A stretch of DNA of 53,143 nt, the filler included, from Streblomastix strix (lineage: Eukaryota), in assembly GCA_008636045.1 (NCBI GenBank). It is 2 parts of 2 records of this genome, joined end to end, with 100 filler letters (N's around TTAATTAATTAA, not from the genome) between each part and the next. Parts side by side here need not be neighbours in the genome. Positions count along the whole stretch, not along the records: positions 26,661 to 53,143 come from SNRW01000164.1; 1 more part is not named here. The stretch is one strand, 5' to 3'. Each line of letters starts with the position of its first letter. Within the stretch, counting starts at the first letter, position 1. The position numbers and the translations under genes are program-made. Under the pieces are notes generated by a model that was given only the letters and a program-made list of their open reading frames with translations, ran no database searches and was not told where the DNA came from. Of the stretch, positions 18,181-53,143 are shown piece by piece.

Positions 18181-18252
<72 letters not shown>

Positions 18253-24983: not shown

Positions 24984-25651
24984 TGTTTTTGTAAAAAATA
25001 AGAAATTAATTATTTTTAATTAGAATTAGATATAAAGAAAAATAAATCAAAAAATAAAGAAAATTAACATAGACACGAGGACAGTCTGGACACGAGTTTA
25101 AAAAACCCCTATTTTTGCTTTTTTCTAGAATATTCCATGAAAAATAGCTAATAAATTAATGATTATATTTTCATCATGAATATTACAATAATACATATGA
25201 ATCATATAGTAAATACTAATTAATAATACAATCTCACACTAAATTAATAATATTAATAATGTAATAATTACATATAATAAATTAATAGAAATAATATATA
25301 ATCTTATTCTATATGAATTTGTCAATACAAAAACAAGTAATTAATATATAGAATTGAATACTAATACTAAATCAGAAAGTAAAACTGAAAATCTAAAGTT
25401 AATTCATATAATGAACAAGATAAAGATAATAAAATAATAGTATATAATCATTGATTAGTATATGTCATAATAATAATAACAATAACGATATTCCAATAAG
25501 AAGTAATATATTCATGCAATTTACTTAGCTTCAACTAATTTTGTCGGGAAATTAGATGTAGTAATAAGTATATTACATGTATATAATAAGAATATGTATA
25601 AAATTTGAAGATATAATATATTGATATGCAATTCATAATATTCATATTAAC

Positions 25652-26560: not shown

Positions 26561-26660
26561 NNNNNNNNNNNNNNNNNNNNNNNNNNNNNNNNNNNNNNNN
26601 NNNNTTAATTAATTAANNNNNNNNNNNNNNNNNNNNNNNNNNNNNNNNNNNNNNNNNNNN
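26561..26660. other. assembly gap with artificial TTAATTAATTAA linker
   Basis: 100-nt N block with a six-frame stop spacer at 26605-26616, so adjacency across it is not assured. Confidence 0.95.
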
Positions 26661-29520: not shown

Positions 29521-29549
29521 TTTATATATTAATTCTCCAATCCTTTTCT

Positions 29550-32500
29550 CCATCTCCTGAGGAGCCATCGTCATCAGCGCGCTCCTCTCCTCTATTCCAG
29601 AGGGAGATCTCAACGCTGATCTCCCTTGGTTGGAGTGTCCCTGCCCGATCAGGGGCTATCTTCCTCCTAGCCCTCGTTGTTAGAGTTTTTTGGTTCGGGA
29701 TTAACCTATTCAGATTTTTTCTTGCCTCTATTGGGCGCAGCTTTATGTTTTGGAACTTTGGAAGTTGTTTTTGTTTGAGTTAGGGCATTGCTGCCCTAAC
29801 TTTCCTCGGAGGCATTCAAGCCTTCGGTTTTTGATTTTCTACTTCTTTTTCTTTACTCAGGCTTCTCCTGTACTCCGACTAGAGCAGGGCCTGAAACATC
29901 TTCTTCCATTTAACTCAAGGCATTTAAAATCTGGTTGTCTTATGGCTATGTGCCTAGATTCTCTAAAACTAGGGTCTATGAGATTAAATTAGCTCTATTA
30001 TCTTTAATTTGGTTTAATGGTGCTTCATCTGTTTACTCATCTTCTTCCTCTTCAGCATTATCCTCATTGCTTTCATTTATTTACGGATCTGTACTTTCCC
30101 TATTACTGTCTGATATTAATCCCGCTTCCATTAACCTCGGCCCTGCATTTAAGCCTGGGCTCCAGACACCAGAACTCGGTTACAAACCAGTTAGCTGTCC
30201 AACAGTTCCCTGAATATCAGGTAGGTCAACATTTATATTGTTGAGATCATTATTCTGTTATTATTGAAGTTATTGCTTTAGCAATTATTATTTCAATTTT
30301 CTCTCAGCTTTCTTTAGTCTTTATTTAGCTCCTCTTCTATGAGTTGATTTCTTTGCTGAGGTATAGAGTAGCTATATTTAGCTGTTTAATTTGTCTCTAT
30401 TCATTCCGGTATTAATCATCATTGGTAAAAGTGAAATTATCCATTATTAGGTTTTTGGACCAGTTTCCTACTATTATTATTTAGTTATTTCCCTGAAGAT
30501 TCATTATTAGATCATTTAATGTAATTGTTGTGGGGCTTATTTAGGTGTTAGGTTATTATTATTGTTTATCACTCCAATTTCTTGTTGCCATTCATTCTCT
30601 GAATTCGATATGCTATACTATTCTTTCTCCCTTTATAATGCAGCTAACTTCTCCTTTAGTATTTCTTATTCATCAATGTCATCTTGGCTCGGTGGTTAAT
30701 CTTTTCTCCCTTTCTATTTTGGTGCCTGGGTTAGAATTTGTTACTTTGGTTGTACATGTATTTGTTGTTCTCTTTATATTTAATTGGGTAGGTTGTTTGA
30801 GCTATGATGTTGTTACCTGATGTTAAGGGACCTCATCTTCCGTCCAGGTTGAGTCTCAATCACTATAGTTCTCTAGGTCTTTCTGCATCTGTGTGCGTTT
30901 TGTCCAATCATCATTTGGATTGCCATCCCAGCCTTCTTCTCTATTCCTGTTTTCAAATTAATGTGTTCTGTTCCGGTTTATCGGGTTCTTTGTCTTGTTA
31001 AAGACTTACATGGTACATGGGTCATATTTTTATGCTTCTCTATATCTCTCCTCTTAATTCGATTAGTCTCTATCTTGATAACTCTGTATTCTTCCTTAAT
31101 AACTATATCCTCTTCCTCTATATGATCCTCGGCCTCTACCCCTTGACTCATTTCTTGTTTCAAATCCATTATGATTTCTATCAACATCCATTCTAGTTTC
31201 TCTTGGACTTTAGTAGTCTGTAGACCTTGAATAACTCCTTGATCCTGATCGTTCTCTCGATTCACTTCTTCTGTCGGGAGGGTCATATCTTGATCTCTTG
31301 CTGTGCGGTGATAAGGACCTATTTCTATGTCTTCCAAATCTGGTTTTGAATTCCTGTATTATTGTTTTGGCTGGTTATAATGTTTCTGAGTCATCTTCTG
31401 AATCATATTCTTTCCTCACACATGCTACTCTCAAATCAAAATTAAGTTCTCTACAGAATGATCTAACAGCATCTATAGAAGGTGTCTAACCCTGTTATTT
31501 TGACTATCTCTAATCTGTCGCATGCGGTACATCTGGACCAAATCCCGGCCAACATTATCCTTCATCATCTTTGCCTACTAGTATTAGATCGAATCCTTTT
31601 AACATCCATCTACGCATCTGGTCCTTGATAGTTTCTTTTGTCAATTCGTTTGGAATTCCTGGAATTTCTTGTTCTGCGTTCAAAGCAGGAGGGAAGATTG
31701 TTGACTATGGTATTACTGCATTTCTTTGTGTACATAGTCCATGATCTGGTGGAGACCAGTCTCTAGGTCCTGCGTTTGGTGGTGACATATCGTTTTGTGT
31801 TCTCGCAATCTAAGCTTCTTAGTTCAGTTCGAAGGCTTGGCTCTCGTTTTAATTCAGCACTGGCCTCTTTATTTGATTCCAGATCGCTGATGGTGTTAAT
31901 TAGCGAAATTTCTTAGTTTTGACTCCTTCTTTCGCAGCTATTGAATTCCTAACAACAAATTCGTGATTCCTATCGCATCTTTGTTCGCTGTGTCGCTCCT
32001 TGCAATGACCTGCGCTCCCAGCATGTGCGATCCTGCTTCGCTATTTAAGTGCGAGTTATTTGAATTCGCAGCTAAATTAAAATAGTTTGCGTTGGTTCCG
32101 TTCTCGTTCCGTGCTCTTGCAAAATGCGTTCTCTCGGCTTCTCTTAAATTATGAATCATCTAGCTGAGTATGTTAATTGCAAAATTATCTTCCTGTTGTT
32201 CACACAAGTGTGCCAGCATTCCTTGGCCTATTCTGAAGTTGTATAACTCCAGTGCTTGCTCTCTCTGCAAAATTTTGTCAATCGGACTGCGCTTCGAGTC
32301 TAGTACTTCATCTGATACTGGTACCGATGTAATTGGCAATAGCTAAGGGCATTGTATCTATCTTCTCCGAGCTTCACCATTCTGTTCGTCTAGGATATTC
32401 GTTGCCCAGAAATCAATCTCGCTCGCTTGCACCCCAGTCGTCGCCTCCAAGATCTTTGCCATAAGCGCTTGCGTTCTCTCACTGACCGCCTGCCTCGGAG

Positions 32501-32840: not shown

Positions 32841-32990
32841 TAATGGTGGCAATAGAAGAAAGAAAAATATTTGTGGGAATAAACAGATGAAGGGAAGAAA
32901 TATTTGATGGAGAAAAGAGAAAAAAAGAAAAAGATTTGATTTACTAGTTACTATAGAAAAGTAGAATATACCTTCACAAAAGTAAATTTA
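32841..32990 (+). pseudogene. 3' remnant of a paralog of the 45784+ gene, cut by the DIRS insertion
   Basis: QWWQQKKEKYLWEQTDEGKKYL matches QWQQWMEEKDLWEQTDEGKKYL at about 47277-47345. Confidence 0.7.
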
Positions 32991-33468
32991 TTCTAATTTT
33001 TATACATTTGTACATATTATTAAGTTTTAATTATATTAATTTATGTTAAACATTTCAAATATTAAATATAAAATTGAATAATAAATTTATGACACTAATC
33101 TTCATATTTATTATTTATTTATTAATATTGATAATGATTAATAAATTACTACTGGAAAAGACATTAAGTCAGTTGAATTATTATATATTTGATGTGAAAT
33201 TGAAAATTTTGAAGTTTATCAGAAAATAATAAAATATAAATAGTTAGAGATAGATAAAATAAAAGATAAAATAGAGAAAACGATAAGAACAGAGAAAAAT
33301 AAATAATTTATGGAAAATAAAATAAAAACTGCTAAACAAAATGGATTTGAATTGAATTGAGAGATGAATATTAGAAGGTGAATGAAATGGAATGACAGTA
33401 AAACCTTTTCACTCATAATTTTATAGTCATGTTCCATTTCATTTTTTGATTGATGAAGAAGATTATAT

Positions 33469-36400
33469 TCAATTAGTTAAACGTTAGGCAATTTCTTGAT
33501 ATTCAATAATGTCATCAATTGTGAATCGCTTTTAGACATCCTTTATTATATATATAAAAAGAAATAAATTATAATTATTATTTTATATATTATTTTTACA
33601 AAAAATTATTAATTATATATATTAAATGAAAATAAAATATATTTTAAATAAATATACTTTAATAAGCATTTTCATAATCAGATTCTTTATCCTATCTGAA
33701 TATTGAAATGGAAGTTCTTGTGGATTTGATTCTGTAATAATTTTAATCAAATCATCCAATGTCACATTATCCTTATAAATAAATAAAATAATTTAATATC
33801 AAAAGATAATATTAAATATAAATATATAACGAAAAAATGACTAATTATATACCTTATTATTTACAAAAGGATGTTTCTATGCCAGAATTTCATAACAAAT
33901 TACGCCCATTGCCCAAATATCTGCTGCCTGTGTTTGGATAATTTTACTTATAGAAGAAATATAAGAATTTAGATAAAACAAAATATTAAAGTAAAATATA
34001 TTTTTTAAATATAATATTTTTTACCTTCTTTCTCCTTCATTTGAGCGCTTTAATAGTTCTGGAGATTAATATAATCTAAATTATTTTAAAAAGTGATTAA
34101 TATAAAAATTAATATAATATTAAATAAAAAAATAAACCTTTTATTAATTATGTTTATAAATTTATAAATTACTAATATTTAATATCTAATTAGCAAACAT
34201 TGTGCCAACTTGCATTGTTGTATAATCTTTTCCAAACTATAATTGCCTAGTTAAAGCAAGGTCAGCTGTAATTATAAACAGTAAATATAAATAATTAATT
34301 AGTTAAATACATATATTCAATTATTATTTATACCTAACTTAATTTTCAACTCATTTGTCAAAAGCACATTTTCACATTTAAGATCTCCATGTATTCTCCT
34401 GGTTGAATGAAGTTGATAAACAGCACAAGCTAATTCAGTAATCATTGCCCAAGCATCCTAAATGATAAATAAATAAAAATAAGTAAAAAATTATATTAAT
34501 TTAAATTAATTTAAATTAATTTAAATAAATTGAATTTATAATATAAATTAAATAAATCTTTAAACTTCTTCATTAATCATTTTTCCATCATTTTTCAAAT
34601 TGTTAATAAACTTCCTCAAGTCACCTCTTTCACAATATTCCATAACTATGTAAGATATAATTCCATCATCACTTAAGAAGAATCCCAATGGTTAAACCAT
34701 TCTAATTATTTAATTTGGGAAGTTAAGTTTAATCTCATCATATGTATTTTTTAGATTTTCTCGTTCTTTATTTACAAATAATTTCTCTTCATCAGAATAA
34801 TAACTCATTTATTTCCACGCAACAATATTTCCTGTTTTTATATTAACTGCTTTCCATACTTCACCAAATGCACCTTTACCAAGTCGTTCCATTCGATTGA
34901 CTAATATTTATAAATTAATAAATATGATTAAAAAAAAATAAAATTTGAATTAATAAAATTAAAATAAATATATTATTAATTTTATTTATATGTATAAATT
35001 TAGATAAAAAAATCATTATAAAATAGAAAATTAATAAATTTAAATAATTGTATTAATATTTTTAAATAAATTATTATTTAAATAAGATTGTATACAATCT
35101 GTTTGCTTCCAATTTACAGTATATGTATTATTTGAATTATGATTTTTATTCTGTGAAGATGAAGAAGAATTTTGGTTTATTTCTTACATATTATATTCCA
35201 ATTATTATTATTATTTAATTATTCTCTTTCTTTGTTATTTTACTTAATAATTATTATATCCCCTTGAGCAATTAGATTTACAATTAGAACAACTATCGGA
35301 AAATTTACAACATAAACATATAATGATTATCAATATTAATGCAAGAGAAACAGATACAATTAGGAATATTATCCACTTGGGGAAATTAGATTTTTATGTC
35401 AAATCTTATTCAAAATCATCTTTATCTTAATCCTTTTTACAATCATCTCGTGGATCATTTTCAATGCAAGCACAATCTTATTCAGTCTTTCCTGTTACAT
35501 CTGTGCAGTCAATTGGTACTGTGCAAATATCAATTCTTGGATCATTTTCAATACATTCACATTCTTATTCAGTCTTACCTATTACATCTGTGCAGTCAAT
35601 TGGTACTGTGCAAATATCAATTCTTGGATCATTTTCAATACATTCACATTCTTATTCAGTCTTTCCTGTTACATCTGTGCAGTCAATTGGTACTGTGCAA
35701 ATATCAATTCTTGGATCATTTTCAATACATTCACATTCTTATTTAGTCTTACCTATTACATCTGTGCAGTCAATTGGTGGTGGGCAAATATCAATTCTTG
35801 GATCATCTTCAATGCATTCACATTCTTATTCAGTTTTTCCTGTTAAATCTGTGCAGTCAATTGGAAATGGACAGTTAAATTTATTTTCATCAATATCTTC
35901 ATTCCAAAATTATTCAAGTTATTTTTATTATTATTTAATTTATTCAATAGGTGAAAAATTGAAAGTTGTGAAATTAATTGGAATTCCTTCAAGTTCACAT
36001 AAGTATGATGTAGAATCACTATAATTCCCTTTAACATATTCTCCTTTAATTCCATATTGACACCATTCTTATAATTTAGTCATTACTAAATACAAACTTT
36101 ATCCTCCATTTGATGCTGAATTATTGTATATTTTCAATCCTCTAAAATCTAAATCATTTGAAGATGGATCATAATCTCCTTCTCCAGCAAGAAAGATTCC
36201 ACCGCCAAATCCTGTTGAATAAGATATTGATTAATTTGAAATTGCTTAACACCCCTTGATTAAGATATCATCTATAATAAACTGATTTTGAGTAGTTAAA
36301 TTAGCATTAATATATATTCCACCACCATTTGGAGCTCTGCAATTATTGATTGTTATGCTACTAATTGAAATTGATTAATTATTATTAATATAACAGTATA

Positions 36401-38585
36401 TCCCACCACCACTGTCAGATGCAGAACAATTATTTATGAGAATTTAGTTGGATTAATTTATAATTATACTATTATTATTGTAATTAATATATTATCCAAT
36501 ATATATTCCACCTCCATATGTAGCTTTACATTCTTTGAATATAAGATTGTTTGATGTAATTTCAAGAATGTTATTCTTAAAATAGCAAATATAATATATC
36601 CCACCACCATTATAGGCTGAACAATTAAAGAATGTCGTATTAATAAACTCCAGAGTACTATTATTATTATATTCCAAGTATATTCCTCCACCATAATATG
36701 AAGCACTACAACTGCTGAATGTTAATCCATTAATAACTTATTATGTTGGACTAGACATATCTAGAAAGATCCCACCACCACCATTGCTACTGCTGCAATT
36801 CTCAAATATGACTTTGTTCAATTTAGCAACACCATAATTTTCACAATCAATAAGCATTCCCCCACCAGCAGAATAAGATTGACATCCTTTGAATAAACAA
36901 TCTTCCAATCTGAGTAAACTACTGGAACTGTAAATCCGAGCATAAAGCCCACCACCATTAACAGCATAACAATCTATGAATTAACATTATCCATCAATTG
37001 ATAATTTGGATCCTGAATCTATCTCAGCAAAGATTCCACCACCAATAACTTCAGATTTACATTCTTTAAATGAAGAATTAGAAATAGAACCCTGACTTCC
37101 ATTATATATTCCTAGAAATAAAGCTCCTCCATATGAATTGTATGAACTGTTTGAGTTTATTTCACAATAAATGAAATTGCAGTTACTTATGTATAATCTA
37201 CTAAATGAATTATTCAATGTTATTTCCATAACTCCTCCATATCAATTATTATATGAATAATTATTATATTTTGAAATGTTTTCAAAGTTGCAATCATTTA
37301 TGTTAATAACACTTGTAGAGCTATTAATATAGATTGAACTGGAATTAGATTAAATATCTTTGATATTCAGATTAGAAATTGTAAGATTTCCATTATCTAA
37401 TCTGAGAAGTCTCTTTTGAATTGTTATTCCTGATTAATTCGTTCTCATTTAACAATCGTTCAATTCAATTGAAGTTGATAATCCTTATCCGAAAATAATA
37501 TAATTACCAATTGTACTTCCAGATGATACAATGAAATTGATATTTTCAAATAGAATTGAACCAGAAACATTGAAATATGTGCTTGTTTCATTAATGATTA
37601 AATCACTAAATGAAGAAAGACTTGTTAAATCCTTTGCAAATCTTCTTACTTGAGATGTTTGTGTTATTGTAAGTGTAGATGGAAGGGTTGATTTATCATA
37701 GATATAGACATTGTAATCATTAACTGTATTAATATTATTAACAATTGTATTTGCATTGAGTGTCTTACATGGATTTGATGATGTGCATGTTTGTGTATCA
37801 ATTCCAGATTCTCTCACATAATAATCAAGACAACTGACATCTAAGAAACTAATTGATGATGAAAAGATTAGAAGAATTATGATGATAATTGGAAAGTTCT
37901 TATTCTTATTAAATTTTAGTTTATTATCTATAATTGATTATTCATTATTGTTGAGATATTGAATTACTACTGAGTAAATGAAATGTGTAACAATAGAAAT
38001 TACTGTAATTAATACTATCAACTGAGAAATGTGCTGACAAATGAAGTTTAGAAGATCTTACACATTATTATGATGCTTTACTTCAAATTAGTTAATTTCT
38101 ATTAATAATTAATGATGATTGAGCTAAGAAATTGGTTCAGTATATCTTTATGTGGAAGAAATAGTGTAGTTAGAATAATGGTCATACATCGACAATGAAT
38201 TATCCAATATGTAACAGATATAATTCTCATTATTTATGAAAGCTTAACATCTCATAGGCAAATTGTAAATGAATTAATCAATAGGAAATTTCGAATTTGG
38301 CAATTCAACAGTATTTTAGTTCAATTAAGTTGCAACGATTTACGGATAGTGACACTGACCAAGTTTCTCTGGGTATTATACCAATCCAATAAAAGGATGT
38401 GAAGCGCTGTTCAAAATATAGCAGTTGATTTTGATTGCTGCATTGACGTCTATAGGTAAAATATTTGGCAAGTTCATCATTTTTATTGCCAATAATGTAG
38501 CCTATCCAAGCAACAAAGAACAGATAGCTGCAAATGAAATGCGGTACGTGGAGAATGACGATTGGAACTTCAGCGAGTTTTTCAT
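33469..38585 (-). CDS. receptor-like protein kinase: leader, GG-repeat (Pmp/beta-helix-like) ectodomain, Cys-rich stalk repeats, TM, NEK-like kinase; one in-frame TGA
   Basis: ATG 38585 (MKNSLKFQSS...), repeated FxxCxAxxGGGIY, TM WIIFLIVSVSLALILIIIICLCC, kinase motifs GKGAFG, VAWK, MEYCERGDL, HGDLKCEN, DLA, SPE, DIWAMG split by several GT-AG introns, stop 33471-33469. In-frame TGA at 37244-37242, so it may be a pseudogene. Confidence 0.82.
35450..35875 (-). repeat. ~5 tandem 87-bp repeats encoding CTVPIDCTDVTGKTEQECECIENDPRIDI
   Basis: Near-identical 87-nt units, in frame in the receptor stalk. Confidence 0.9.
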
Positions 38586-39220
38586 GCGTGAATCTATTTG
38601 TATAATAAATAGTTATAGATAAAAATATGCGCTAATTTATTTATTGATCTATTAAAATGCATTTGCAACAAGTTATATAATGGTAGTCGAACAGAAAATG
38701 CTTTTTTATAAAATATTATTCTAAGTTCTTAGATATGCAATATTTTATATTAATATTATTATTAAAATATCTATAATATTGAATTAATTAATAATTCAAT
38801 ACAAATATTCACTAATATTAATTGGTTAAGACGATAAAAAAAACTTTCTTTTGATATGAATATCTTCATAGATAAAATAATATATTTTGATTTGGTTAAA
38901 AAATTATTCAAATATATTCATCTGGATCATCATAAGAACATAATATTTACTAATTTTAACTATATAAAAAAAAATTAATTAAAGTTGAAAATAGTTTGTT
39001 TTTTTTAAAAAAAAAATATTTCAATGTTGTTAATATATAATAATATTGCATATAACAGATTTGTATCAATTATATCAATAACAATAAATAAATATTAAAA
39101 TGAAAAAATAAGAAAATCAAGAAAAAAAGTTTAATTAAAAAAAATCACTAAAAAAATAAAATAAATACTTAAATTTGATCGACAGTAGTAATATTTAATT
39201 TTGATTGATAAAAGCAATAT

Positions 39221-41829
39221 TCAATTTGCATCTTCATCTTAATCATATGGATGATCATTATCTTAATATGAATCAACACTATCCAAATCAAGATTTAATT
39301 CTTCTCTTTCATCTTCATCGGGTTTCAATTTGTCTTATTTCTTCTTTTATTTTTGCTTTTTCTTGTTTTCTTTATCCTGTTGCTTCTTTTTGTCTAATAA
39401 TGCTGGTAAATCAACATCATCTTCTGATGTTGTGTATAAGATACCAAATAAGACATCTCCTAAATGAAGGAATTCATCTGCACCATCTTCTTCAATTTCA
39501 CGCAGTTGTTCTTCTGGGTTTTCTAAGTTTGACAAAAACTATAAATGTGTAATATAGTAATAATAAATAAAAATTAATATATTAATATATTAAAATATTA
39601 ATAAAATTAATATAATTCATATTTAAATAAATTTAAAATAATCTGTTTCATATTTTACTAAATAAATTGCAATAATTGATGTTATTATTATTTATTTCAC
39701 ATACTGGAACAAACATTTCTCCAATAGGTTCATCCCAAAGAATTTTGTCCTAATCCCAGACTTCAAACTTAACTTCTCGATCTTTAGTTTTCTTAGGATC
39801 AAAATCAAACTTATATTATCTGTTATAAACTGGATGCAAAGTCTTATGTGCAACTTCAGTTCTAAATTCTTATCCTCCTAAATTAAGCACAACATATGGA
39901 TCAGATTTACCACCAACATCAAATGGGATTAGATCACTCAATTCCTCTAAATATATATAAACATATCCAGGTACAAAATAAGTTTCATTCATTTTTATGT
40001 CTTCTGTCAGTTTCTTATTCTCTTCTCTCACGTTCTTTGACATGTGCAGCGATGGCTTCAGGAGATGGAATCTTTAATCTCGCAGCTTCACGGAGTGCTT
40101 TGATGGTTCTCTGACCTTGTGGAGGTTATGGTGGTTTGTTTTTTAGTTTATTTTCAAAATCTTTTTTGGCTTTTTCTTTTTCTTAATCTGGTTTGTTTTT
40201 ATCAGGAATTTAATTCTTTTTTCTTTCTTTTTCTTTTTGTTTATCTTTTGGATCTTTGCATTCATCATCTTCCTCATCTGATGGATAATCTTTTTATTTT
40301 GGCTTTCTTTATTTTTTATTTGGATCTTAATATTAATCATCTTCATCTTCATCTGGTGAATATCTTCCTTTTGAGGGTCTTATGCTTTTTGATTTTTTAA
40401 TTGGATCTTAATATTAATCATCTTAATCTTCATCGGGTTTCAATTTGTCTTATTTCTTCTTTTATTTCTATTTTTTCTTGTTTTCTTTCTCTTGTTGCTT
40501 CTTTTTGTCTAATAATGCTGGTAAATCAACATCATCTTCTGATGTTGTGTATAAGATTCCAAATAAGACATCTCCTAAATGAAGGAATTCATCTGCACCA
40601 TCTTCTTCAATTTCACGAAGTTGTTCTTCTGGCTTTTCTAAGTTTGATTAAAACTATAAATGCGTAATATAATTATAATAATAATAACAATTAAAAATTA
40701 ATAAAATAATTTATATCATATTTAGTTAAATTAATTATAATAATTAATATTAAAATATTTCACATATTGGAATAAACACCTCTTTTACAGGTTCATCCCA
40801 AAGAATTCTGTCTTAATCCCAGACTTCAAACTTAACTTCTCGATCTTTAGTTTTCTTAGGATCAAAATCGAACTTATATTATCTGTTATAAACTGGATGC
40901 AAAGTTTTATTTGCAACTTCAGTTCTAAATTCTTATCCACCTAAATTAAGCACAACATATGCATCAGATTTACCACCAACATCAAATGGGATTAGATCAC
41001 TCAATTCCTCCAAATATATATAAACATATCCAGGTACAAAATAAGTTTCATTCATTTTTATGTCTTCTGTCAGTTTCTTATTCTCTTCTCTCACGTTCTT
41101 TGACATGTGCAGCGATGGCTTCAGGAGATGGAATCTTTAATCTCGCAGCTTCACGGAGTGCTTTGATGGTTCTCTGACCTTGTGGAGGTTATGGTGGTTT
41201 GTTTTTTAGTTTATTTTCAAAATCTTTTTTGGCTTTTTCTTTATCTTTATCTGGTTTGTTTTAATCTGGTTTGTTTTAATCTGGAATTTAATTCTTTTTT
41301 CTTTCTTTTTCTTTTTGTTTATCTTTTGGATCTTTGTATTCATCATCTTCCTCATCTGAAGGATAATCTTTTTATTTTGGTTTTGATCTTCTTTATTTTT
41401 AATTTGGATCTTAATATTCATCATCTTCATCTTCATCTGGTGAATATCTTCCTTTTGGAGGTCTTAAGCTTTTTGATTTTTTATTTGGGTCTTAATATTC
41501 ATCATCTTCATCTTAATTTTCATCTTAATCTGGACTTTTTACACTTTAATTTGGATTTCTTGATTTCGGTTTTTCTTTCTCTTATTCCAATTATTTCTAT
41601 TTTTCCTTATCAATCATCTTATTATAATCTTATTGTGGTAGATATACTATTTCTATATACATATCTCCTGCTGCTTCATTCTGACCTTCATCTTGATCAC
41701 CAATTAGATTAAGATGAAGTTTTTATGGGTTGAGGAAGTAACGACCAAACTATGAATGGAAATAAATATATAAGAAAGTAAATTGTAAAATTACATATAA
41801 AAGTAAATAATTATATTTTAATCATTCAA

Positions 41830-41861
<32 letters not shown>

Positions 41862-44800
41862 GATATAGATATATAAATACATACAAATATAAAAAAATAA
41901 AAAATAATATGCAAACCGGAATTGCAACTCATCCAACAAAAACTTCATCTTCATAATCATAATCATCTTCATCACTTTCATATTCTTCATATTCTTCCTT
42001 ATCATATTTCTTCTTCTTTCTATCCAAGACTTCAATAAACAATTCTCTTTCATTTGTCTTCTCGGGATCAAAGTCAATATCAAACAGTTCATCAAAATCA
42101 ACATCAATTGCTTTGTTGTATGTTTTGGTTTCTTTCTCTTCTGCGCCAATAATTAATCTCGTAAATGGATTGGGTTTCCGTTTTGGTTCGTTTTGTGCTA
42201 AATTGTTCAAATCGAGAACTTTAACTCTGACAACTCCAATCACATATTCAGATTCATCAAGTTCTCTTCCTTAAACTTTCAATGGATCAAAATAATCAAA
42301 GTCTTTTTATTTATCATCTTTTTTCTTTCTTTTCATATCTTTCTTCTTCTTTTCATCGTCATCTTTCGGATTCTAATACAATTCTCTCAAATTTTATTCT
42401 TATTCTTTCTGCTTCTTTTTGTTCTCTTCATCAATCTTATCCTGGATATATTTCTCTTCTGATATGTACATAAGAGAAAAACAAACTTTCCCGCAATTCT
42501 TCTCTTATTCTTATCTTTACTTCAGAGATAACTTAGATTGTGAATGATTGTATCCTTCAGTATCTTTCTTCTTGTATATGAAGACTTCATTGTAGATCTC
42601 ATGTTCAAATATTGGGAGGATCTAATAATAATAAAATATAAATAATAATTATCAATTTAAATAAATTTATTAAATATTTCAAATAAACTTAAATAATCAA
42701 TAATAAAAATAAATATATTTCATTTATATATTTTCAATTACATATAAATTCAATCTATACAAATAAAAACCTCCACAATTCCAGCTCCAATCAGATCATT
42801 GCTTCCAATTCTATCATAATCCCAAACTTCAATATCGATTTCTTTCCTTTCCTTCATCTTATTAGGAATATATAATAGCTCAAATTATTCACCAATATAA
42901 TCATAGTTTTATGTGTTATGAGCAACTGATGTTTATTTTGATTCATCAGCACCAAGTTTGAATACAACATATGGATCGAATTTGTCCATGAAATCCATTT
43001 CAGGTAAATCTCGAACTTTGACATTTCGGATCTTAACTACTCCTTTGATGTATTTGGAATCATTTTCATCATATTTCATTTTTTTGGGATCTTTTTTGGA
43101 TTTATTTTTTGAATCTGGATCTGATTCATCACTTGATTCATTATCTCCACTTTTATCTTCTGAATTTGAGTCTGAATCATAATCTTTTTATTTGGGTTTC
43201 TTTCTTTATTTTAATTAATTATCTTTATCTTTATCTTTATCTTTTGGTTTATTATATTAATCTTCATCTTCATCAGATTAATCCTTTTATTATTGTGGCT
43301 ATCTTTTTCTCACTTTTTCTTTTTCTTTATCTTATTATTTAGGTTTATTATCTTCATCTTCTGAGTTTGAGTCTGATTCATAATCTTTTTATTTTGGTTT
43401 CTATCTTCTTTTCAATTCATTTTCATTTTCTTTATCTTTTTCTTATTATTTCTCTTCAGGTAAATAAATCATAGTAAATTTGATTATTCCATTGTTTTTA
43501 TCTGGTTTATATTATGCGAGATTTGATTTCAGTTTTGATTGATCCTTCTTCTTATCAGGTTTTGGTTGTAAATACAATTCAAAATCTATTTCATGTTATA
43601 GAGCTGGAAGTATCTGTTGTAGGATAAGTAAATAGAAATGAATATGAATTAATATGAATAAATTAAATATAATAAAATAAATAATATGTGCTTTATATAG
43701 AAATAAAACAAATTATTAATATAATTTATTTATAAATATACAATAATATATAATAAACAAAATATAATAATATATACCTCCACATTCACAGATCCAATCA
43801 AATCATCCAAACCAACTTTATCATAATCCCAAACTTCAAGAGTAACATTTCCATCTCCTTTCATTATACTTGGATCATAAATCATCTCATATTCTTCACC
43901 TTCATACAAATGATTCAAAGTATTCTTAGCTACTGAAGTCTGCTTCTCATCATTTCATAATCGTAATAAAACATATGGATCATATTTTCCAATTAAATCC
44001 ATCTTAGGAAGATCTTCAACTGATATGTTACTCAATATAACTTTGCCTTTCACATATTTCAGACTTTTCGCTTCTTTCATTTTCTTGTCTTTTGCATCTT
44101 CCAGTTTATTGATCCTATCCTGCATCTATTAAACTGCTTCATCTTCTTTTTTATGTTCTTCATCTTCTTTTTTTTTTATTATTCTGCAATTATGGGATAA
44201 ATTCAATTGTTAAATACGCAATTCCTGTTGGTTCATCATATTCATCTTGAATTTTGACTTCTTTGTCTTGTTTGTTGTTCAGGAAGGGAAGGATCTATGA
44301 TTCAAAGGATATATACAATATATGAATAAATATATACAAATAACAATAATTTAATTTAACATAAAACAATTTCAGTATTTAATAATATAATCACACATTA
44401 ACATTCGCTCCGCCGATCTTATCATCAGAAGCATAGTCATCCTTATCCCAGACTTCAATCTTCATTGAATCTGATTAATTTGGATCAAATTGATACTCAA
44501 ACTCAAATTATTCATTGAATTCTGCATCAGTTGCTCCTTTTTTAGGTTTAGTTTTCTCTATTTAATTCAGAACCAACAAAGTAACATAAGGTCTTTTTTC
44601 AGCTTCGGGATCATATGTTACTAAATCACGCACACTATGCACAGTTATTTTCAATATTCCTTTCTTGTTCTCATTTTCGGATTATTTCGCTTTTTGTGCT
44701 TATTTCTGTCTTTTAGCTTTCAGTTTCGAAAGAAGATCTGCTATAGCTCTTTTAAGCTCATCTATTTCACGCTGAAGGTATTCCAACATTTTGTCTTCTA

Positions 44801-45054
44801 AGGCAACTTGTTTCAGATGTTGTGTTTTAGAAAGATCTACTTCGTTGTATTATTGTTCTTTTTAATCAATCGCGATTTTCATTTCTTCAATAAGTTTATT
44901 GACATCTACGGTATTTAAAGTCTAACCATCTTTTATATTTGGGGTATTTTTTTCGTTACCTCTCAATGCTAGAAGGAGAAATGGCAGTGACTTCTGGCGA
45001 ACTCGTAGAATCGAATTTTACTCGTTTTGCGCCTGAATCGCCGCTTCTGCTCAT
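39221..45054 (-). CDS. multi-C2-domain protein (about six C2 domains, charged linkers, several introns)
   Basis: C2 motifs such as DLPKMDLIGKYDPYV...EVWDYDKVGLDDLIG, DLPEMDFMDKFDPYV...EVWDYDRIGSNDLIG and EVWDQDKILWDEP. TGA at 39223-39221. The 5' end needs a one-base shift at an A-run near 44950. Confidence 0.78.
39311..41520. repeat. intragenic tandem duplication (~1.1 kb) of a C2 module
   Basis: 39311-40425 matches 40426-41520 with near-identical exons (for example ORFs 39896 and 40959) and diverged introns. Confidence 0.88.
41836..41872. repeat. (TA)n microsatellite in an intron
   Basis: Directly visible. Confidence 0.9.
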
Positions 45055-45783: not shown

Positions 45784-47400
45784 ATGAGTAGAAACCTCTT
45801 AAGTTTGCTTCGTAATCAGTCAGAATAAAAGTTAGATAGTTAACATCCACCGATCCCTGTAGACCCGAACGCATTCTAACACCAAACAATTATTACAGAT
45901 TTTCATAAACAAACTTCAACTCCAAATTATGCATCATTTTCATCCAACCACAGAAATTATAACAATTAGCATTAATATAATTCTAATTTTACTCCCCAAT
46001 AAAACTAATTTGGGCAATTCAATCAATAGAATTCTGGATAGTCTGAAAGAATTGTTAGAAAACCACTCACTTCACTTTTGTCCTCAGCAAAAACAGAATC
46101 ATTCAATAATCAGAATTCATTATAATAGTAATATTAACCCAATTAATCTTCTTATTACAGGCTAGATACAAAACCTCCATAAAACTAATAATAATCAAAT
46201 AATTTACAATAATTCAATCAAAATCCAGAATTGAATCGATCATTTTCAGATACGTTCACAAATCATACACTTCAAATTAGCAATATTCCTTCAAATTAAA
46301 TATTTCACCGAACTTCGCTCCTTTCAAAACTCCAATAAAATCATTTAACAGAATAAATATCTAAATTTAACTCCATTGATTAAAATAATAATTAAAATAA
46401 TAATATTATAAAATAAAATAAAGAACCCGAAAAGAATAACATTATTAAATTTGAAAACAATAATTTTATTAAATTTAATAACAATAATGATATTGAAAAT
46501 ATTGATCCTTCAAATCCAATTTAATAATCTATTAAACAAGAATAAATTGGATTTTCAGAGAATGAATCAGAATAAAACGAAATGAATGATTAAATTCAAA
46601 TCAAATAAACAACAAAAGTTAGAAAGAAAAAGAAGAAACTCACTTCAGAAGAAAAAAATTAACAAAAAATAGAAAAGAAACAAAAAGAAGGAAAAAAACA
46701 ATTAAAAGAAAAAGAAAAATAATAAAATAAATCATCAAGATCAAAAAGTAATACAAAATAAAGTAATTCAAAATAAAAAGATAATAATTAGAAAACTTCC
46801 AGGAAAAGAAGAATAATTAAAATTAAAGAATAAAAACATCTCTAAAATAATTTCATATTATTCATGATAATGACGATGAGGATGATGAAGAATAATTTAA
46901 TTAAAATTATAATATAAGTATTCCAATGGGAAATTAATATTAATAAACAAACGATATAGTAAATAGAAAAGTGAAAAGAAAAAGAGAAATTGAAGAAGAA
47001 GAAGAAGAAGAAAATATCGCCGATGGTATTAATAACTAGAACTAACAATCAAATAAATATAGTAAATTTGATAATTATCTTAAAGATGATGATGAATAAT
47101 AATATTCTGCATCATCTTCATCATCAGAATCAAGCAGTTCCAATTCAAAAAACAAATCCAATACCAAACAAAGAGGATCTTTCAGAGGAATATACTTTGG
47201 AAATTGCATTTGAGGAAGAGGAAGAGGAAGAACAAATAGAAATTAAAAGATCAGAATTCCAAAAAGATTCTCATAATAATGGTAGCAATGGATGGAAGAA
47301 AAAGATTTATGGGAATAAACAGATGAAGGGAAGAAATATTTGAAAGAGAAAGCATAAATGAAAAAGAAGAACAAATTTACTTGCTACAACAGAAATATAT
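45784..47400 (+). pseudogene. low-complexity N/Q/K-rich hypothetical gene with RG-rich C-terminal part; frameshift and TGA
   Basis: ATG 45784 (MSRNLLSLLRNQ...). Apparent frameshift near 46810 and TGA in GNCI*GRGRGR at about 47211. The C-terminal motif is conserved with the 32841 remnant. The lesions could be assembly errors. Confidence 0.55.
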
Positions 47401-48309
47401 AATATAATATCATAAAAGTTAATTTATTCTTATTTTAATTCATTTGTACATTTAATTAAGATTTAATTATATTAATTTATGTTAAACATTTCAAATATTA
47501 AATATAAAATTGAATATTAAATTCATGGAATTTATTTATCTTAAAAGTTTCTTATTTTTTATTTCCTATTATTGATAATGATTACTAAACTACCACTGGT
47601 AAAGACGTTTAAGTCAATTGAATTATTATATATTTGATGTGGAATTGAAAATTTTGAAGTTTATCAGAAAATAATATATAAATATAAATATAAATAGACA
47701 GAGAGAGAAAAAATAAAAAATAAAAAAGAGAAAATGAAAAGAATGGAGAAAAATAAACAATTTGTGCAAAATAAAATAAAAATGTCCATCAAAATGGATT
47801 TGAATTGAATTGAGAGAAGAATATTAGAAGGTGAATGAAATGGAATGACAGTAAAACCTTTTCACTCATAATTTTGCTGTCATATTCCAATTCATTTTTT
47901 GATTGAGGAAGATGATTGTATTTTGTGTTTCAATTATATATGTTGATGATTATTGAAAAATTCATGAAGAAGAGAATGAATTTGTTTAATTGGAGATATA
48001 AGATAAAGGTGTATGAAATAATAACAAATGATTTACAAGACGAATTTCACTAACTTTGAGCCTACATCATAAAATAATAAGAACTCATTGTGAAATAAAT
48101 TAATTACTTAATTATTTATTATTTAAAATATTAAATTAATAATTTCAAACCTTATTTGAATTAGAATTGAGCCCTCCTCTTGCTAGAAGATAACTTAATT
48201 CATTTACATAATGATTACGGAAGAAGGGGTAAATGATGAGATGATATATAAATAAAACAGTGAAATTTATTCAAAATCTTTAAGTTATATTCATTTATCA
48301 ACTTAATTC

Positions 48310-51300
48310 TCAAGCATATTCAATTTTCTTCACACGATTCGAATCATAGATCACATATTCTGGCAAATTGAGGTTGGTATTCATATAGTTTGCAGGAAAA
48401 TAAACACTATCATATCCTTATTTCTTGAGCTATTCTCCAGTTAACTATGGTTCCATCTACTTCATGATCTTAGTTCTTCCAATATCAACTTAGCATTTAA
48501 GAATGACTCCCTTTTGATGTGCTTTTCGATTTGTATCTTCAACATTGAGAGCGAAATATATACCACCTCCTGCAATTCCACCTGTTCCAGGTCTAAATCC
48601 AGTTTGTATGATCTATCTTGCTGCTTCGCGAGATGTTTAATGATATCCATCAACGATATTAATAGCTTTTACTGATTATGGTGGTGGATAATTTTATTTA
48701 TTAATATATGAAGATGGTCGATAAATTTTCTTATCAGAGCATAATCTTGCGCAATTTATACAACAATTTGAACATCCTTCAGTACAACTTGAACAACAAT
48801 CAGAACATCCATCAGTGCAACTTGAACAGCAATCAGAACATCCTTTAGCACAACTTGAACAACATCCACAGCAGCATAAGATTATTGCTACCAAAGCAAG
48901 AGAAACAAATACTATTAGAAATATTGCCCACCAAGGTAAATTAGATTTATTCCAATATCTCTCTAAATATTATTATTGATGCATAATTTTATCAATTGAT
49001 AATGAATAGAAAGTGTTGAAACTTAATTAAATTCCTTAAAGTTCATTTTCATTTGATGTAGAATCACTATAATTCCCTTTAACATATTCTCCTTTATATC
49101 CATATTAACACCATTCTTATAATTTAGTCATTACAATATACAAACTCTATCCTCCATTAGTTGCTGAATTATTGTATATTTTCATTCCTCTAAAATCTAA
49201 CCCAATAGAATTGAAATCATAATCTCCATTTCCAGCAAGAAATATTCCACCTCCAAATCCAAAATGTGATTTATTTGAAAATGCTTGACATCCTTTAATT
49301 AAGATATCTTCAATAATAAACTGAATTTGAATAGAAAAATTAGTATTAACACATATTCCTCCACCATTTGGAGCTCTACAATTATTAAGCGTCATGTTAC
49401 TAATTGAAATTGAACTATTGTTATATTAAATATCACAGAATATTCCACCACCATATACATCTGCAGAACAATTGTCTATAAGAATCTAATTTGATGAAAT
49501 AAAAGATATGCGATAATTATAAATGTAATCATAATAATCTAAATCAGTATATATTCCTCCACCATATGAAGCTGAACATTCTTTGATTATAAGATTGTAT
49601 GATGTAATTGTTAGGGTATTATTATTAAAATGGCAATAAATGTATATTCCCCCACCAAAATATTAGGCTGTACAATTAAAGATAGTAGTATTAATAAACT
49701 CCAGAGAATTATTATTTCAAAAAGAAATGCATATTCCTCCACCACGATTAGCACTACAACTGGTGAATGCTGATCCATTAATAACTTAATGTGTTGAATA
49801 ATACATATCCAGATAGATTCCGTTACCATAAGAACTACTGGAATTCTCAAATATGACTTTGTTCACTTAAACAACACCTTAGTCATATAAATATAAGTAT
49901 GCTCCTCCACCAGAATAAGCTTGACATCCTCTAAATAGACAATCTTCCAAGCTGGGTTAACTACTGGAATCATAAATAGCATAAATTCCACCACCATCTC
50001 AATGAGCTTTACAACCTATGAATTAACATTATCCAGTGATTAATAATATTGATCCATTAGCTATATTTACATAGATACCACCACCATTATCAGCATAACA
50101 ATCTATGAACTAACATTAACCATCGATTGTTAACTTGGCCCCATTATATATAAATGCATAGATTCCACCACCAATATCACCAGCTTAACATTCTTTAAAT
50201 GTTGAATTAGAAATAGAACTTTGACTTCCATTTGATAATCTAAGATATAAAGCTCCTCCATATGAATAGAGTGATGATGATGATATTTCACATTTAATTA
50301 AATTGCAATTTCTTATATTTAGAATGTTATATGAATTGTTCAATCTTATTTCCATTACTCCACCTTCATGATAACTATTATTATATTTTGAAATGTTCTC
50401 AAAGATGCAATCAATTATGTTAATAGCACTTGAAGAACTATTTATATAGATTGAGTTGGAATTAGATTAAATATCTTTTATATTTAGATTTGATAATGTT
50501 AGATTGCCATTATTTAATTAAATAAGTATCTTTTGAATTGTTATTCCTGATTAATTCATTCTCATCTAACAATCATTTAATTCAATTGAAGTTGATGATC
50601 CTGATCCCAAAATAATATAATTACCAACTGTTCCTCCAGATGAAATAATGAAATTGATCTTTTCAAATAGAATTGATCCAGAAACATTGAAATATGTGTT
50701 TGTTTCATTAATGATTAAATCACTAAATGAAGAAAGACTTGTTGAATTCTTTGCAAATCTTCTTACTGGAGATGTTTATGTTATTGAAAGTGTAGATGGA
50801 AGAGTTATTTTATCAATGATATAGACATTGTAAGCACTTGCTGTATTAAGATTATTCTTTATTGTACTTGCATTGAGTGTTTTACATGGACTTGATGATG
50901 AGCATGTTTGTGTATCATTTCCAGATTCTCTCACATAATAATCAAGACAACTGACATCTAAGAAACCAATTGAAGAAATGAAGATTAGAAGCATTATGAT
51001 GATAATTGGAAAGTTCTTATGATTATTATATTTTAATTTATTATCAATAATTGATTATTCATTATAGTTGAGATATTGAATGAGTAAAGAGTGAATGAAA
51101 TTAGAAACAATAGAGATAACTGTAATTAATCCAATCAACTGATAAATGTGCTGACAAATAAAGTTAAGAAGATCTTATACATTATATTGATGTTTTTATT
51201 CTAATTGGTTATTTGCTAATAATAATGAATGATGATTGAGTTAAGAAATTGGTTCAGTATATCTTTATGTGGAAGAAATAGTGTAGTTAGAAAGATGGCC

Positions 51301-51702: not shown

Positions 51703-52335
51703 GTGTGAGTCTAATGTTATAATATAATAATAAAGATAAAATTATGCGCAAAATAATTATATGATTAATCGGAATGTATTTGCAACAAGTTATATAATTG
51801 TAATCGAACAGAAAATGTTTTTTTCTAAAATATTATTCTAAGTTCTTAGTTTAGTAATATTTTAAATTATCATTATATTGAAAATATATGTAATATTGAA
51901 TTAATTAATATTTCAATACAAATATTCACAAATATTAATTGGTTAAGATGATAATAAAAACTATCTTTAGATATGAATATCTTCATAGATAATAAAAGAA
52001 ATTTTGATTTGATTAAAAAATTATTCAAATATATTCATCTGGATTATCATAAGAACATAATATTTACTAATTTTAACTACCTAAAAATATTTAATTAAAG
52101 TTGAAAATAGTTTGTTTTTTTTTTAAAAAAATATATCAAAGTTATTAAAATATAATAATATTACATATAACAGATTTGTATCAATTATATCAATAAAAAT
52201 AAATAAATATTAAAATGAAAAAATAATAAAATCAAGAAAAAAAGTTTAATTAAAAAAAAATCACTAAAAAATAAAATAAATTCTTAAATTTAATTGACTG
52301 TTGTAATATTTAATTTTGAATGATAAATGTAATAT

Positions 52336-53143
52336 TCAATTTTCATCTTCATCTTAATCATATGGATGATCTTTATCTTAATATGAATAAACACTATCCA
52401 AATCAAGATTTAATTCTTCTCCTTCATCTTCATCGGGTTTCAATTTGTCTTATTTCTTCTTTTATTTCTGCTTTTTCTTGTTTTCTTTCTCCTGTTGCTT
52501 CTTTTTGTCTAATAAAGTAGGTAAATCAACATCATCTTCTGATGTTGTGTATAAGATACCAAATAAGACATCTCCTAAATGAAGGAATTCATCTGCACCA
52601 TCTTCTTCAATTTCACGCAGTTGTTCTTCTGGCTTTTCTAAGTTTGACAAAAACTGCAATGTGTAATATAATAATAATTAAAAATTTGATATAAAATGAA
52701 TATAAAAAATATTAATTGTTCCATATTTAAATATATTAATTTTAATAATTAATATTAATATATTTCACTTACTGGTACAAGCAACTCTCCAACAGGTTCA
52801 TCCCAAAGAATTCTGTCTTAATCCCAGACTTCAAATTTAACTTCTCGATCTTTAGTTTTCTTAGGATCAAAATCAAACTTATATTATCTGTTATAAACTG
52901 GATCCAAAGTCTTATGTGCAACTTCAGTTCTAAATTCTTATCCTCACAAATTAAGCACAACATATGGATCAGATTTACGACCAACATCAAATGGGATTAG
53001 ATTACTCAATTCTTCTAAATATATATAAACATATCCAGGTACAAAATAAGTTTCATTCATTTTTATGTCTTCTGTCAGTTTCTTATTCTCTTCTCTCACG
53101 TTCTTTGACATGTGCAGCGATGGCTTCAGGAGATGGAATCTTT
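52336..53143 (-). CDS. 3' end of a second copy of the multi-C2 gene (partial)
   Basis: Near-identical to 39221-40075, with TGA at 52338-52336. Confidence 0.85.

What the first reader, a model, noticed from the sequence alone, without database searches (positions are those of the whole stretch)
48310..48940. Transmembrane receptor with a cytoplasmic H-Y-E ADP-ribosyltransferase (PARP/Gig2-like) domain
Seen in sequence: with TAA/TAG=Gln, the TM helix and Cys-rich tail (ORF 48694-48894) continue in frame into a ~110-aa domain: NIVDGYHQTSREAARQIIQTGFRPGTGGIAGGGIYFALNVEDTNRKAHQKGVILKCQVDIGRTKIMKQMEPQLTGEQLKKQGYDSVYFPANYMNTNLNLPEYVIYDSNRVKKIEYA. Established knowledge: YH[G]T..I...GF....G.GIYFA...YDSV...EYVIY is the signature of diphtheria-toxin/PARP-type (H-Y-E) ART domains, including the minimal Gig2-like family. 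All three catalytic residues are present (His codon 48642-48640). Inference: this is a single-pass surface receptor that signals or defends by ADP-ribosylation, a 'receptor ART' architecture I do not know to be characterised in protists. The standard-code ORF track hides it.
Basis: partly seen in the sequence, partly recalled or inferred. Interest (0 to 1): 0.9.

Follow-up and report, generated by a model that had tools for sequence, protein, structure and literature searches.

The report
Receptor kinase swapped for PARP-like enzyme
A termite-gut protist carries a copy of a surface-receptor gene whose inner kinase was likely swapped for a small PARP-like domain predicted to attach ADP-ribose to targets, but two stop codons in the outer part mean this copy probably cannot make the whole receptor.

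Summary
With TAA/TAG=Gln one minus-strand frame (51702-48310) runs: signal-like segment, beta-helix ectodomain, one TM helix, Cys-rich tail, then a 118-aa PARP-fold domain with His, Tyr and Glu in place (Pfam PARP E 1e-5; structural Z 10.4 to tankyrase-2). The domain belongs to a widespread, Gig2-related 'HQT' family (1361 representatives), expanded in Streblomastix and fused there to kinases and zinc fingers. New here: the gene is a tandem duplicate of a beta-helix receptor-kinase gene 13 kb away. Upstream block, ectodomain, TM, tail and downstream flank are shared, but the intron-rich kinase is replaced by the intronless ART. They are confirmed by an assembled contig, do not lie in introns and are not conserved-Trp sites. 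So this copy is probably a decaying receptor-ART, though its ectodomain evolved under purifying selection, a second sample links a 97%-identical ART to the ectodomain, and an unrelated marine protein has a similar layout. Two nicotinamide-pocket residues differ from PARPs family-wide; activity is untested.

The parts
48310..48666 (-). Minimal H-Y-E ART (PARP-fold, Gig2-related HQT family) domain, 118 aa, plus TGA stop; no intron
48640..48642 (-). Triad His (followed by Gln, where PARPs and Gig2 have Gly)
48556..48558 (-). Triad Tyr of GGGIYFA
48523..48525 (-). Lys at the position of the nicotinamide-stacking Tyr of PARP4/Gig2 (PARP1 Tyr907)
   Evidence: alignments; family counts; role of Tyr907
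48358..48360 (-). Triad Glu of PEYVIY
   Evidence: (E in 160 of 163 domains)
48667..48732 (-). Linker; still alignable by eye with the kinase paralog's linker up to the ART start (likely 5' seam of the swap)
   Evidence: alignment
48733..48876 (-). Cys-rich juxtamembrane tail, 19 Cys in 48 aa, 7-aa repeats; palmitoylation or metal binding inferred
48868..48924 (-). Single TM helix (Kyte-Doolittle 3.25); 78% identical in DNA to the paralog's TM
48949..50946 (-). Ectodomain of C-x-x-x-x-GGG[IL]Y repeats, predicted right-handed beta-helix; 28 N-glycosylation sequons versus 0 in the tail
49999..50001 (-). In-frame TGA 1, in a hypervariable loop
49717..49719 (-). In-frame TGA 2, in a hypervariable loop
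49393..49395 (-). Internal ATG used by the public 361-aa model (no signal peptide)
50947..50994 (-). Met237 and signal-peptide-like segment; same start in relative P0201
50995..51702 (-). 236-codon open N-terminal extension with two hydrophobic segments, conserved gap-free in the paralog; coding status uncertain
47277..47922 (.). Downstream flank shared with the paralog (32841-33469, 84%); marks the 3' limit of the swapped segment
35013..38585 (-). Tandem paralog B: same extension, ectodomain, TM and linker, extracellular Cys repeats, one in-frame TGA (37244-37242)
33472..34901 (-). Paralog B's intron-rich Ser/Thr kinase, in the place where the ART sits in the studied gene

Best explanation
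This gene is a tandem copy of an oxymonad beta-helix surface-receptor kinase gene in which the kinase was most likely replaced, in frame, by an intronless Gig2-related PARP-fold module predicted to act as a membrane-tethered mono-ADP-ribosyltransferase or NADase, and this copy likely no longer makes the full-length receptor because two stop codons interrupt its ectodomain. Shown: the frame, the fold matches, the H-Y-E triad, the duplicate with shared flanks and a kinase in the same slot, the two TGAs. Inferred: direction kinase-to-ART (kinases sit on 5 of 41 ectodomain relatives including the closest; ART on none); a donor from the species' own expanded ART family (tree); type-I topology with the ART inside. 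Inferred mechanism when intact: a variable beta-helix binds an outside ligand, plausibly glycans of gut bacteria; clustering brings the ART domains together, held at the membrane by the Cys tail; the ART spends NAD+ on a protein or nucleic-acid target in place of phosphorylation. Mono- rather than poly-ADP-ribosylation is expected because the domain is bare and has Asp where PARP1/2 have Lys903. The stops are best read as recent nonsense mutations in a large, fast-turnover receptor family.
For: Fold: AF2 pLDDT 81.5 (the other four models scored 35-47); Foldseek top hits PARP2/PARP4 E 2e-5; VIA Z 10.4, rmsd 2.2, 108 aligned to tankyrase-2. Swap: shared blocks 50070-53143/36941-40075 (86%), 48946-50089/35898-37047 (77%), TM 78%, flank 47277-47922/32841-33469 (84%); intact spliced kinase in the paralog, 67% identical in its first part to relative P0198; no significant kinase remnant behind the ART (best E 0.34). 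Donor: ART groups with 9 other Streblomastix copies (SH-aLRT 91), 59-78% identity, next to Streblomastix/Kipferlia zinc-finger ARTs. Promiscuous module: also C-terminal on two kinases and DnaJ zinc fingers. Past function: ectodomain dN/dS 0.56 versus neutral simulations with minima 0.60 and 0.89 in 60 runs each; 3 TGAs seen in the two copies versus 10-12 expected if neutral; 10 of 11 indels are multiples of 3. Stops real: X1 contig 49171-50558 spans both with 0 differences; kinase introns are 4-11% GC, candidate introns over the TGAs at least 27%; aligned residues in relatives are variable, Trp in 2 of 41 and 0 of 41; other genes in the window also carry single TGAs, one opposite a Gly of a sister C2 gene.
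Against: The ART itself is undamaged and keeps every highly conserved family position, and there is no frameshift in 1,130 codons, which fits a working gene as well as a recently dead one. A contig from a second sample (X3) carries a 97.5%-identical ART with the same 3' flank joined in frame to the ectodomain's 5' part, so other alleles or copies exist and may be intact. X1 may be the sample the window was built from, so it is not independent support for the stops. Many of the 41 relatives are partial gene models (only 14 show a TM), so 0 of 41 is weak. Gln and Lys replace Gly863 and Tyr907 of the PARP1 nicotinamide pocket, so catalysis is not assured. The neutral simulation used assumed base frequencies and rates. 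The seam is called by eye in AT-rich DNA.
Confidence: 0.58

Rival explanations
1. A working receptor-ART: full-length protein is made, either by UGA read-through away from the mRNA end (as in some ciliates that also read UAR as Gln; recalled) or from an intact allele or sister copy, and ligand binding triggers ADP-ribosylation inside the cell.
For: No frameshift, intact ART, purifying selection on the ectodomain. All three TGAs in the two duplicates sit in hypervariable loops where any residue is tolerated. The paralog has an intact multi-exon kinase despite its TGA. A 3,660-codon gene has a single internal TGA. Second-sample copy. An unrelated MMETSP protein, P0131, has signal-like N-terminus, small Cys ectodomain, TM, Cys tail and the same ART family; 11 of 146 ART relatives have a hydrophobic segment upstream.
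Against: TGA is not used like a sense codon: 26 TGG versus 4 internal TGA in three long genes whose third positions are strongly AT-biased. TGA sites are not Trp-conserved. Published code for Streblomastix reassigns only TAR; the passages seen do not mention UGA (PMC13002328). Two read-through events would multiply.
Confidence: 0.24
2. Only the short form is made: translation from the internal ATG at 49395 gives a 361-aa signal-anchor protein with a stub of beta-helix, TM, Cys tail and ART, a membrane-tethered ART rather than a receptor.
For: 468-codon open frame after the second TGA; public model P0011; short TM-ART proteins recur in other eukaryotes, e.g. P0078, P0113, P0145, P0157.
Against: The model is automatic; no sign of a separate promoter; no signal peptide; the stub starts mid-repeat.
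Confidence: 0.1
3. The domain keeps the PARP fold but is not a transferase: the family-wide Gln/Lys pocket makes it a binder of NAD+, ADP-ribose or nucleic acid, or a pure NADase.
For: H-Q-Y-T-K-E is the pattern in 115 of 163 domains, against H-G-Y-A-Y-E in the 19 Gig2-type domains; Gly863 and Tyr907 line the PARP1 nicotinamide site; Pfam score is under the curated cut-off.
Against: His 156, Tyr 162 and Glu 160 of 163 are conserved; Gly863 binds through its backbone; a viral DTX-like ART with only the His conserved is active (PMC8120803 passage).
Confidence: 0.2
4. Assembly or amplification chimera joined an ART gene to a receptor gene at the Cys-rich repeats.
For: Fragmented single-cell-type assembly (N50 5.18 kb for the S. 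strix draft, PMC10703272); the Cys repeats occur in other paralogs; no listed single contig spans the whole gene.
Against: X1 contig 48490-48859 and X2 contig 48581-48851 bridge ART, linker and Cys tail with 0 differences; both outer flanks match the tandem paralog in the right order; the junction is in frame; X3 independently links ectodomain 5' sequence to the ART.
Confidence: 0.05

Closest known systems
Gig2 family (fish, lamprey, amphibian interferon-induced PARP-like proteins; PMC3617106)
   Same: Minimal PARP-fold unit with H..GIY..GYDS..E spacing; 31% identity over 114 aa to an Astyanax Gig2-cluster protein; Gig2 proteins are among the top non-Streblomastix hits.
   Different: H-Q and K instead of H-G and Y; outside the Gig2 clade (SH-aLRT 100); Gig2 proteins are one to four tandem units, and 'transmembrane' does not occur in that paper's main text.
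PARP/ARTD catalytic domain (PARP1/2/4, tankyrase; PF00644)
   Same: Fold (Z 9-10, rmsd 2.2-2.9) and H-Y-E triad.
   Different: 118 aa only, no helical or WGR domain, Gly863/Lys903/Tyr907 positions are Gln/Asp/Lys, below Pfam cut-off; fused to a receptor.
Streblomastix beta-helix receptor kinases (P0198, P0207, P0211, P0219, P0224)
   Same: Ectodomain (E 9e-163 to P0198), conserved pre-TM block, TM and linker; tandem paralog in the window.
   Different: Cytoplasmic kinase with introns replaced by an intronless ART.
Membrane-bound PARPs: PARP16 and a sponge TM-PARP (PMC4245714)
   Same: Cytosolic PARP-fold domain tied to a membrane by one helix.
   Different: PARP16 has a C-terminal anchor; the sponge protein has an N-terminal TM; no ectodomain is mentioned for either in the passages seen.
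Metamonad DnaJ-zinc-finger ARTs (Streblomastix P0009/P0018, Kipferlia P0022)
   Same: Same HQT ART family, 52-57% identity, sister group in the tree.
   Different: Soluble zinc-finger fusion; probably the older form from which the Streblomastix expansion came (inferred).

Membership tests
H-Y-E (ARTD/PARP-like) ADP-ribosyltransferase fold | Split beta-sheet ART fold | tested here: met
   AF2 model pLDDT 81.5; Foldseek PARP2/PARP4 E 2e-5; VIA Z 10.4, rmsd 2.2, 108 aligned
H-Y-E (ARTD/PARP-like) ADP-ribosyltransferase fold | His-Tyr-Glu triad at the canonical positions | tested here: met
   Tyr and Glu align with PARP4; His, Tyr, Glu align with Gig2; conserved 156, 162, 160 of 163
H-Y-E (ARTD/PARP-like) ADP-ribosyltransferase fold | NAD+ cleavage and ADP-ribose transfer | not testable with these tools
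   needs an enzyme assay
Canonical PARP catalytic domain (PF00644) | Pfam gathering score 26.7 | tested here: not met
   25.3 bits, E 1.2e-5
Canonical PARP catalytic domain (PF00644) | Nicotinamide pocket Gly after His and stacking Tyr (PARP1 Gly863, Tyr907) | tested here: not met
   Gln and Lys here; roles from PMC4157409 passages
Poly-ADP-ribosylating PARPs (PARP1/2, tankyrase) | Lys903-equivalent and regulatory domains | tested here: not met
   Asp at that column in the PARP2 alignment; no other Pfam domain in the tail
Vertebrate Gig2 | N-terminal stretch homologous to the PARP signature | tested here: met
   definition from PMC3617106 passages
Vertebrate Gig2 | Falls within the Gig2 clade and has H-G/Y pocket residues | tested here: not met
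   19 H-G domains form a separate branch, SH-aLRT 100 (quick tree, 89 of 163 domains)
Vertebrate Gig2 | Conserved Gig2 C-terminal block | tested here: inconclusive
   alignable (GYD..., E..YD) at about 30% identity only
Vertebrate Gig2 | Virus/interferon induction and antiviral effect | not testable with these tools
   no expression data
Streblomastix beta-helix receptor family | Beta-helix repeat ectodomain | tested here: met
   41 Streblomastix homologs among 68 hits; model pLDDT 89.4; VIA Z 12-13 to many beta-helices, rmsd 3-4, a generic fold match; Foldseek gave no hit at E 0.001
Streblomastix beta-helix receptor family | One TM helix after the ectodomain | tested here: met
Streblomastix beta-helix receptor family | Cytoplasmic protein kinase (receptor-kinase subgroup) | tested here: not met
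   ART in its place; no significant kinase remnant
Streblomastix beta-helix receptor family | Uninterrupted frame from signal peptide to tail | tested here: not met
   two TGA codons

The most novel reading that the evidence does not exclude
Protists have repeatedly built 'receptor ADP-ribosyltransferases': Streblomastix swaps kinase and ART cassettes on a diversifying beta-helix receptor scaffold, and the full-length receptor-ART is made (intact sister copy or UGA read-through) and signals or defends by NAD+-dependent modification on meeting gut bacteria; the marine P0131 protein would be a convergent second case, and the HQT family a large, uncharacterised enzyme class with its own pocket chemistry.
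Probability: 0.27. Interest if true: 0.82.

Novelty: new variant of a known kind. Interest (0 to 1): 0.55.

Why it matters
Receptor kinases, cyclases and phosphatases are textbook (recalled); a single-pass receptor whose output is a cytoplasmic ART was not found in my searches. The locus catches the step that makes one: two adjacent duplicates with the same outside part and flanks but a kinase in one and an ART in the other. It gives a small, easily expressed domain for testing a 1,361-cluster ART family with a conserved non-canonical pocket, and a testable idea for how a protist coated in bacterial symbionts (recalled) might sense and control them. The interest is tempered because this copy is interrupted, is the only one of its layout found in the species, and no activity is shown.

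Tried and rejected
Whole-genome search: no genome is held for this window, so paralogs were surveyed only through public protein models and Logan contigs. Expression: no RNA holder listed; X3 is of unknown kind and contigs cannot show ends or level; its cover near 48279 and 50647-51020 was not used as evidence of transcript ends. X3 has no cover over the TGA sites at 95% likeness, and the 82% laying listed no alternative letters there in its cut tables: no conclusion. UGA=Trp as a regular code: rejected on codon counts and residue counts. TGAs inside introns: rejected on GC content and repeat conformity. The X3 joint 50719-48561 as splicing: rejected, its ends are not GT-AG on the coding strand; deletion allele or amplification chimera remain. 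ART in other ectodomain relatives: none of 41; the best score was P0232 at domain E 0.003 on a repeat protein, treated as noise. Metagenome scan: 3 loci of 291 candidates; the two read (L001, L002) are standalone-looking ART genes without a TM-ectodomain layout, L003 not read. Viral scan: 3 weak partial matches of 69, not followed. Foldseek on the ectodomain model: no hit at E 0.001. Bacterial promoter/terminator scan of the 3' region: irrelevant to a eukaryote, nothing above chance. Earlier findings: nothing returned. The careful tree did not finish; the quick tree on 89 of 163 domains has many open forks. Aravind et al. 2015 (PMC6126934) and the S. strix genome paper were not held; either could bear on novelty. 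No supplements were read. No complex prediction was run.

Full report
Observation. His, Tyr and Glu lie at 48642, 48558 and 48360. A profile from 149 non-Streblomastix relatives scores this frame 141.8 bits and nothing else in the window above 1 bit. The frame also holds two internal TGA codons, 50001-49999 and 49719-49717. All 13 hits of the word-based searches are Streblomastix strix records or the window's own model, and the reassignment of TAR to Gln in that genus is published (PMC13002328, passages).

The domain. Pfam gives PARP at E 1.2e-5, 25.3 bits, just under the cut-off of 26.7. The AF2 model (pLDDT 81.5; only one of five models was confident) matches PARP2 and PARP4 in Foldseek (E 2e-5) and tankyrase-2 at Z 10.4, rmsd 2.2 over 108 residues, with PARPs filling the top 11 rows and diphtheria toxin at Z 9.1. 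The full HMMER search found 1,361 representatives at E 0.001 and listed 150; named ones include Astyanax and lamprey Gig2-type proteins, Kipferlia, a dinoflagellate and, in a related cluster, a haptophyte. In 163 aligned domains His, Tyr and Glu are kept in 156, 162 and 160. But 115 of 163, including this one, read H-Q-Y-T-K-E, against H-G-Y-A-Y-E in 19 Gig2-type domains. Gln and Lys stand where PARP1 has Gly863 and Tyr907, which line the nicotinamide site (PMC4157409, passages; alignments). In a quick tree of 89 of the 163 domains the Gig2 type is a separate branch (SH-aLRT 100), and the window's domain groups with nine other Streblomastix copies (91), next to Streblomastix and Kipferlia zinc-finger ARTs. 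So it works like a PARP-type ART by fold and triad, is related to Gig2, but is a member of neither canonical PARPs nor vertebrate Gig2. In Streblomastix the same module ends two kinases, two DnaJ zinc-finger proteins and others.

The receptor part. Hydropathy shows a signal-like segment at Met237, one strong TM (residues 927-945), then 19 Cys in 48 residues; there are 28 N-glycosylation sequons before the TM and none after, which fits the ART being cytoplasmic. The ectodomain has 41 Streblomastix relatives among 68 hits, best E 9e-163. A model of its last 256 residues (pLDDT 89.4) matches right-handed beta-helices at Z 12-13, rmsd 3-4, a generic fold match; Foldseek gave nothing at E 0.001. 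Five of the 41 relatives carry a kinase, none the ART, but many are partial models.

The swap. The window holds a tandem paralog (38585-35013). The two share an upstream block with a C2-domain gene (86%), the ectodomain (77-86%), the TM (78%) and a downstream flank (47277-47922 with 32841-33469, 84%). Between TM and flank the paralog has a linker and a kinase split by AT-rich introns (34901-33472), intact against relative P0198. The studied gene has a similar linker, then the intronless ART and about 390 bases of unrelated DNA; no significant kinase remnant is found. As kinases sit on the closest relatives, kinase-to-ART is the likely direction. Whether it happened by DNA gene conversion or through a cDNA is not shown.

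Is the junction real? X1 contig 48490-48859 and X2 contig 48581-48851 bridge ART, linker and Cys tail with no differences, and X1 covers all 30 bins, though no listed piece spans the gene and X1/X2 may be the source sample. In a second sample one contig carries the ART 3' part and flank (7 differences in 283) joined in frame to 47 bases of the ectodomain's 5' part; its ends are not GT-AG. Deletion allele or chimera, it suggests that ectodomain and ART lie together in a second sample. Another X3 contig shows a paralogous TM plus Cys tail.

Are the stops real and what do they mean? One X1 contig (49171-50558) spans both with no differences. True introns here are 4-11% GC; every frame-keeping GT-AG candidate over the TGAs is at least 27%. 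The aligned residues in 41 relatives are highly variable, Trp in 2 and 0. Three long genes have 26 TGG and 4 internal TGA, so TGA is not an ordinary Trp codon. Single TGAs also interrupt the paralog, a C2 gene and a 3,660-codon gene. Yet the ectodomain shows dN/dS 0.56 between the duplicates against neutral minima of 0.60 and 0.89 (60 runs each, assumed rates), 3 TGAs where 10-12 would be expected, and 10 of 11 indels in threes; the stretch between the stops alone gives 1.11. The simplest reading is a gene that worked for most of its history and was hit recently. Low-level read-through or an intact sister copy is not excluded.

Convergence. Among 146 listed ART relatives, 11 have a hydrophobic segment upstream. 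P0131, an MMETSP transcript, has by eye a signal peptide, a short Cys-rich outer part, TM, Cys-rich tail and the same ART family, and it does not group with the Streblomastix copies. None of the 11 shows a large beta-helix ectodomain.

Mechanism. Shown: fold, triad, layout, duplicate, stops. Inferred: a variable beta-helix binds an outside ligand, plausibly bacterial glycans since many top fold matches are glycan-binding or glycan-degrading proteins; clustering activates the tethered ART; output is mono-ADP-ribosylation or NAD+ breakdown, since the domain is bare and has Asp at the Lys903 column. Palmitoylation of the Cys tail is recalled by analogy, not tested.

Literature. Full-text searches: Streblomastix with ADP-ribosyl gave 0 papers; searches listed nothing describing a receptor-ART. 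Passages read: PMC3617106 (Gig2; notes dinoflagellate and haptophyte ESTs), PMC4245714 (PARP16 C-terminal TM; a sponge protein with N-terminal TM then PARP), PMC3417536, PMC9503650, PMC6759080 (kinases are the largest family in Monocercomonoides), PMC10703272, PMC1266365, PMC8120803, PMC4157409, PMC13002328. No full texts or supplements were read; the 2015 ART review and the S. strix genome paper were not held, so novelty is claimed only against these searches.

Verdict. A real and unusual architecture with a clear origin: a receptor kinase converted to a receptor-ART. New variant of a known kind. Interest 0.55, held down by the two stops, the single instance and untested activity; about 0.27 that a working receptor-ART exists, which would merit about 0.8.

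Noticed in passing
window 35013-38585 and 33472-34901 (-): Tandem paralog is a receptor kinase with an apparently intact spliced kinase but one in-frame TGA (37244) in the ectodomain; named model P0211 corresponds to it and seems mis-spliced and fused to downstream retroelement sequence.
   Followed up: yes
window 48946-50994 vs 35898-37877; 51703-52420 vs 38586-39310: The ectodomain coding DNA of the duplicates is more diverged (79-85%) than their upstream intergenic DNA (88.6%), suggesting diversifying selection or mosaic exchange with other family members.
   Followed up: partly
window 10887-21866 (-): 3,660-codon multi-TM, Gln-rich frame with a single internal TGA at 18629 and no Pfam match.
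   Followed up: partly
window 39200-45050 and 52300-53143 (-): Cluster of C2-domain genes upstream of each receptor copy; one has an in-frame TGA at 43957 opposite a Gly of a sister copy.
   Followed up: partly
window 28074-31415 (-): Retroelement with RT and RNase H matches, interrupted by TGA at 28604.
   Followed up: no
window 8033-9637 (+); 23530-25067 (-): Intron-containing Sir2 gene (another NAD+ user, 39 kb away, probably coincidence) and an HNH endonuclease gene with a nearby 75%-identical repeat.
   Followed up: no
proteins P0012, P0014, P0042, P0058, P0144, P0077, P0093, P0067, P0096, P0153: The HQT ART module is also fused to kinases, inserted into MOV10-like helicases, and fused to ubiquitin-like domains in various eukaryotic or unnamed records, a pattern that suggests defence roles.
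   Followed up: partly
proteins P0007, P0008, P0010, P0013, P0014: Several Streblomastix ART models lose the YHQ motif at the same point, hinting at an unrecognised intron there; the window's ART is continuous at that point.
   Followed up: no
window 50719/48561, run X3: One contig joins the ectodomain 5' part to the ART 3' part in frame, skipping 2,157 bases including TM and His; deletion allele or chimera.
   Followed up: partly
window 26561-26660: Two runs of 44 N: a scaffold gap, about 6 kb from the duplicated region's nearest edge.
   Followed up: no
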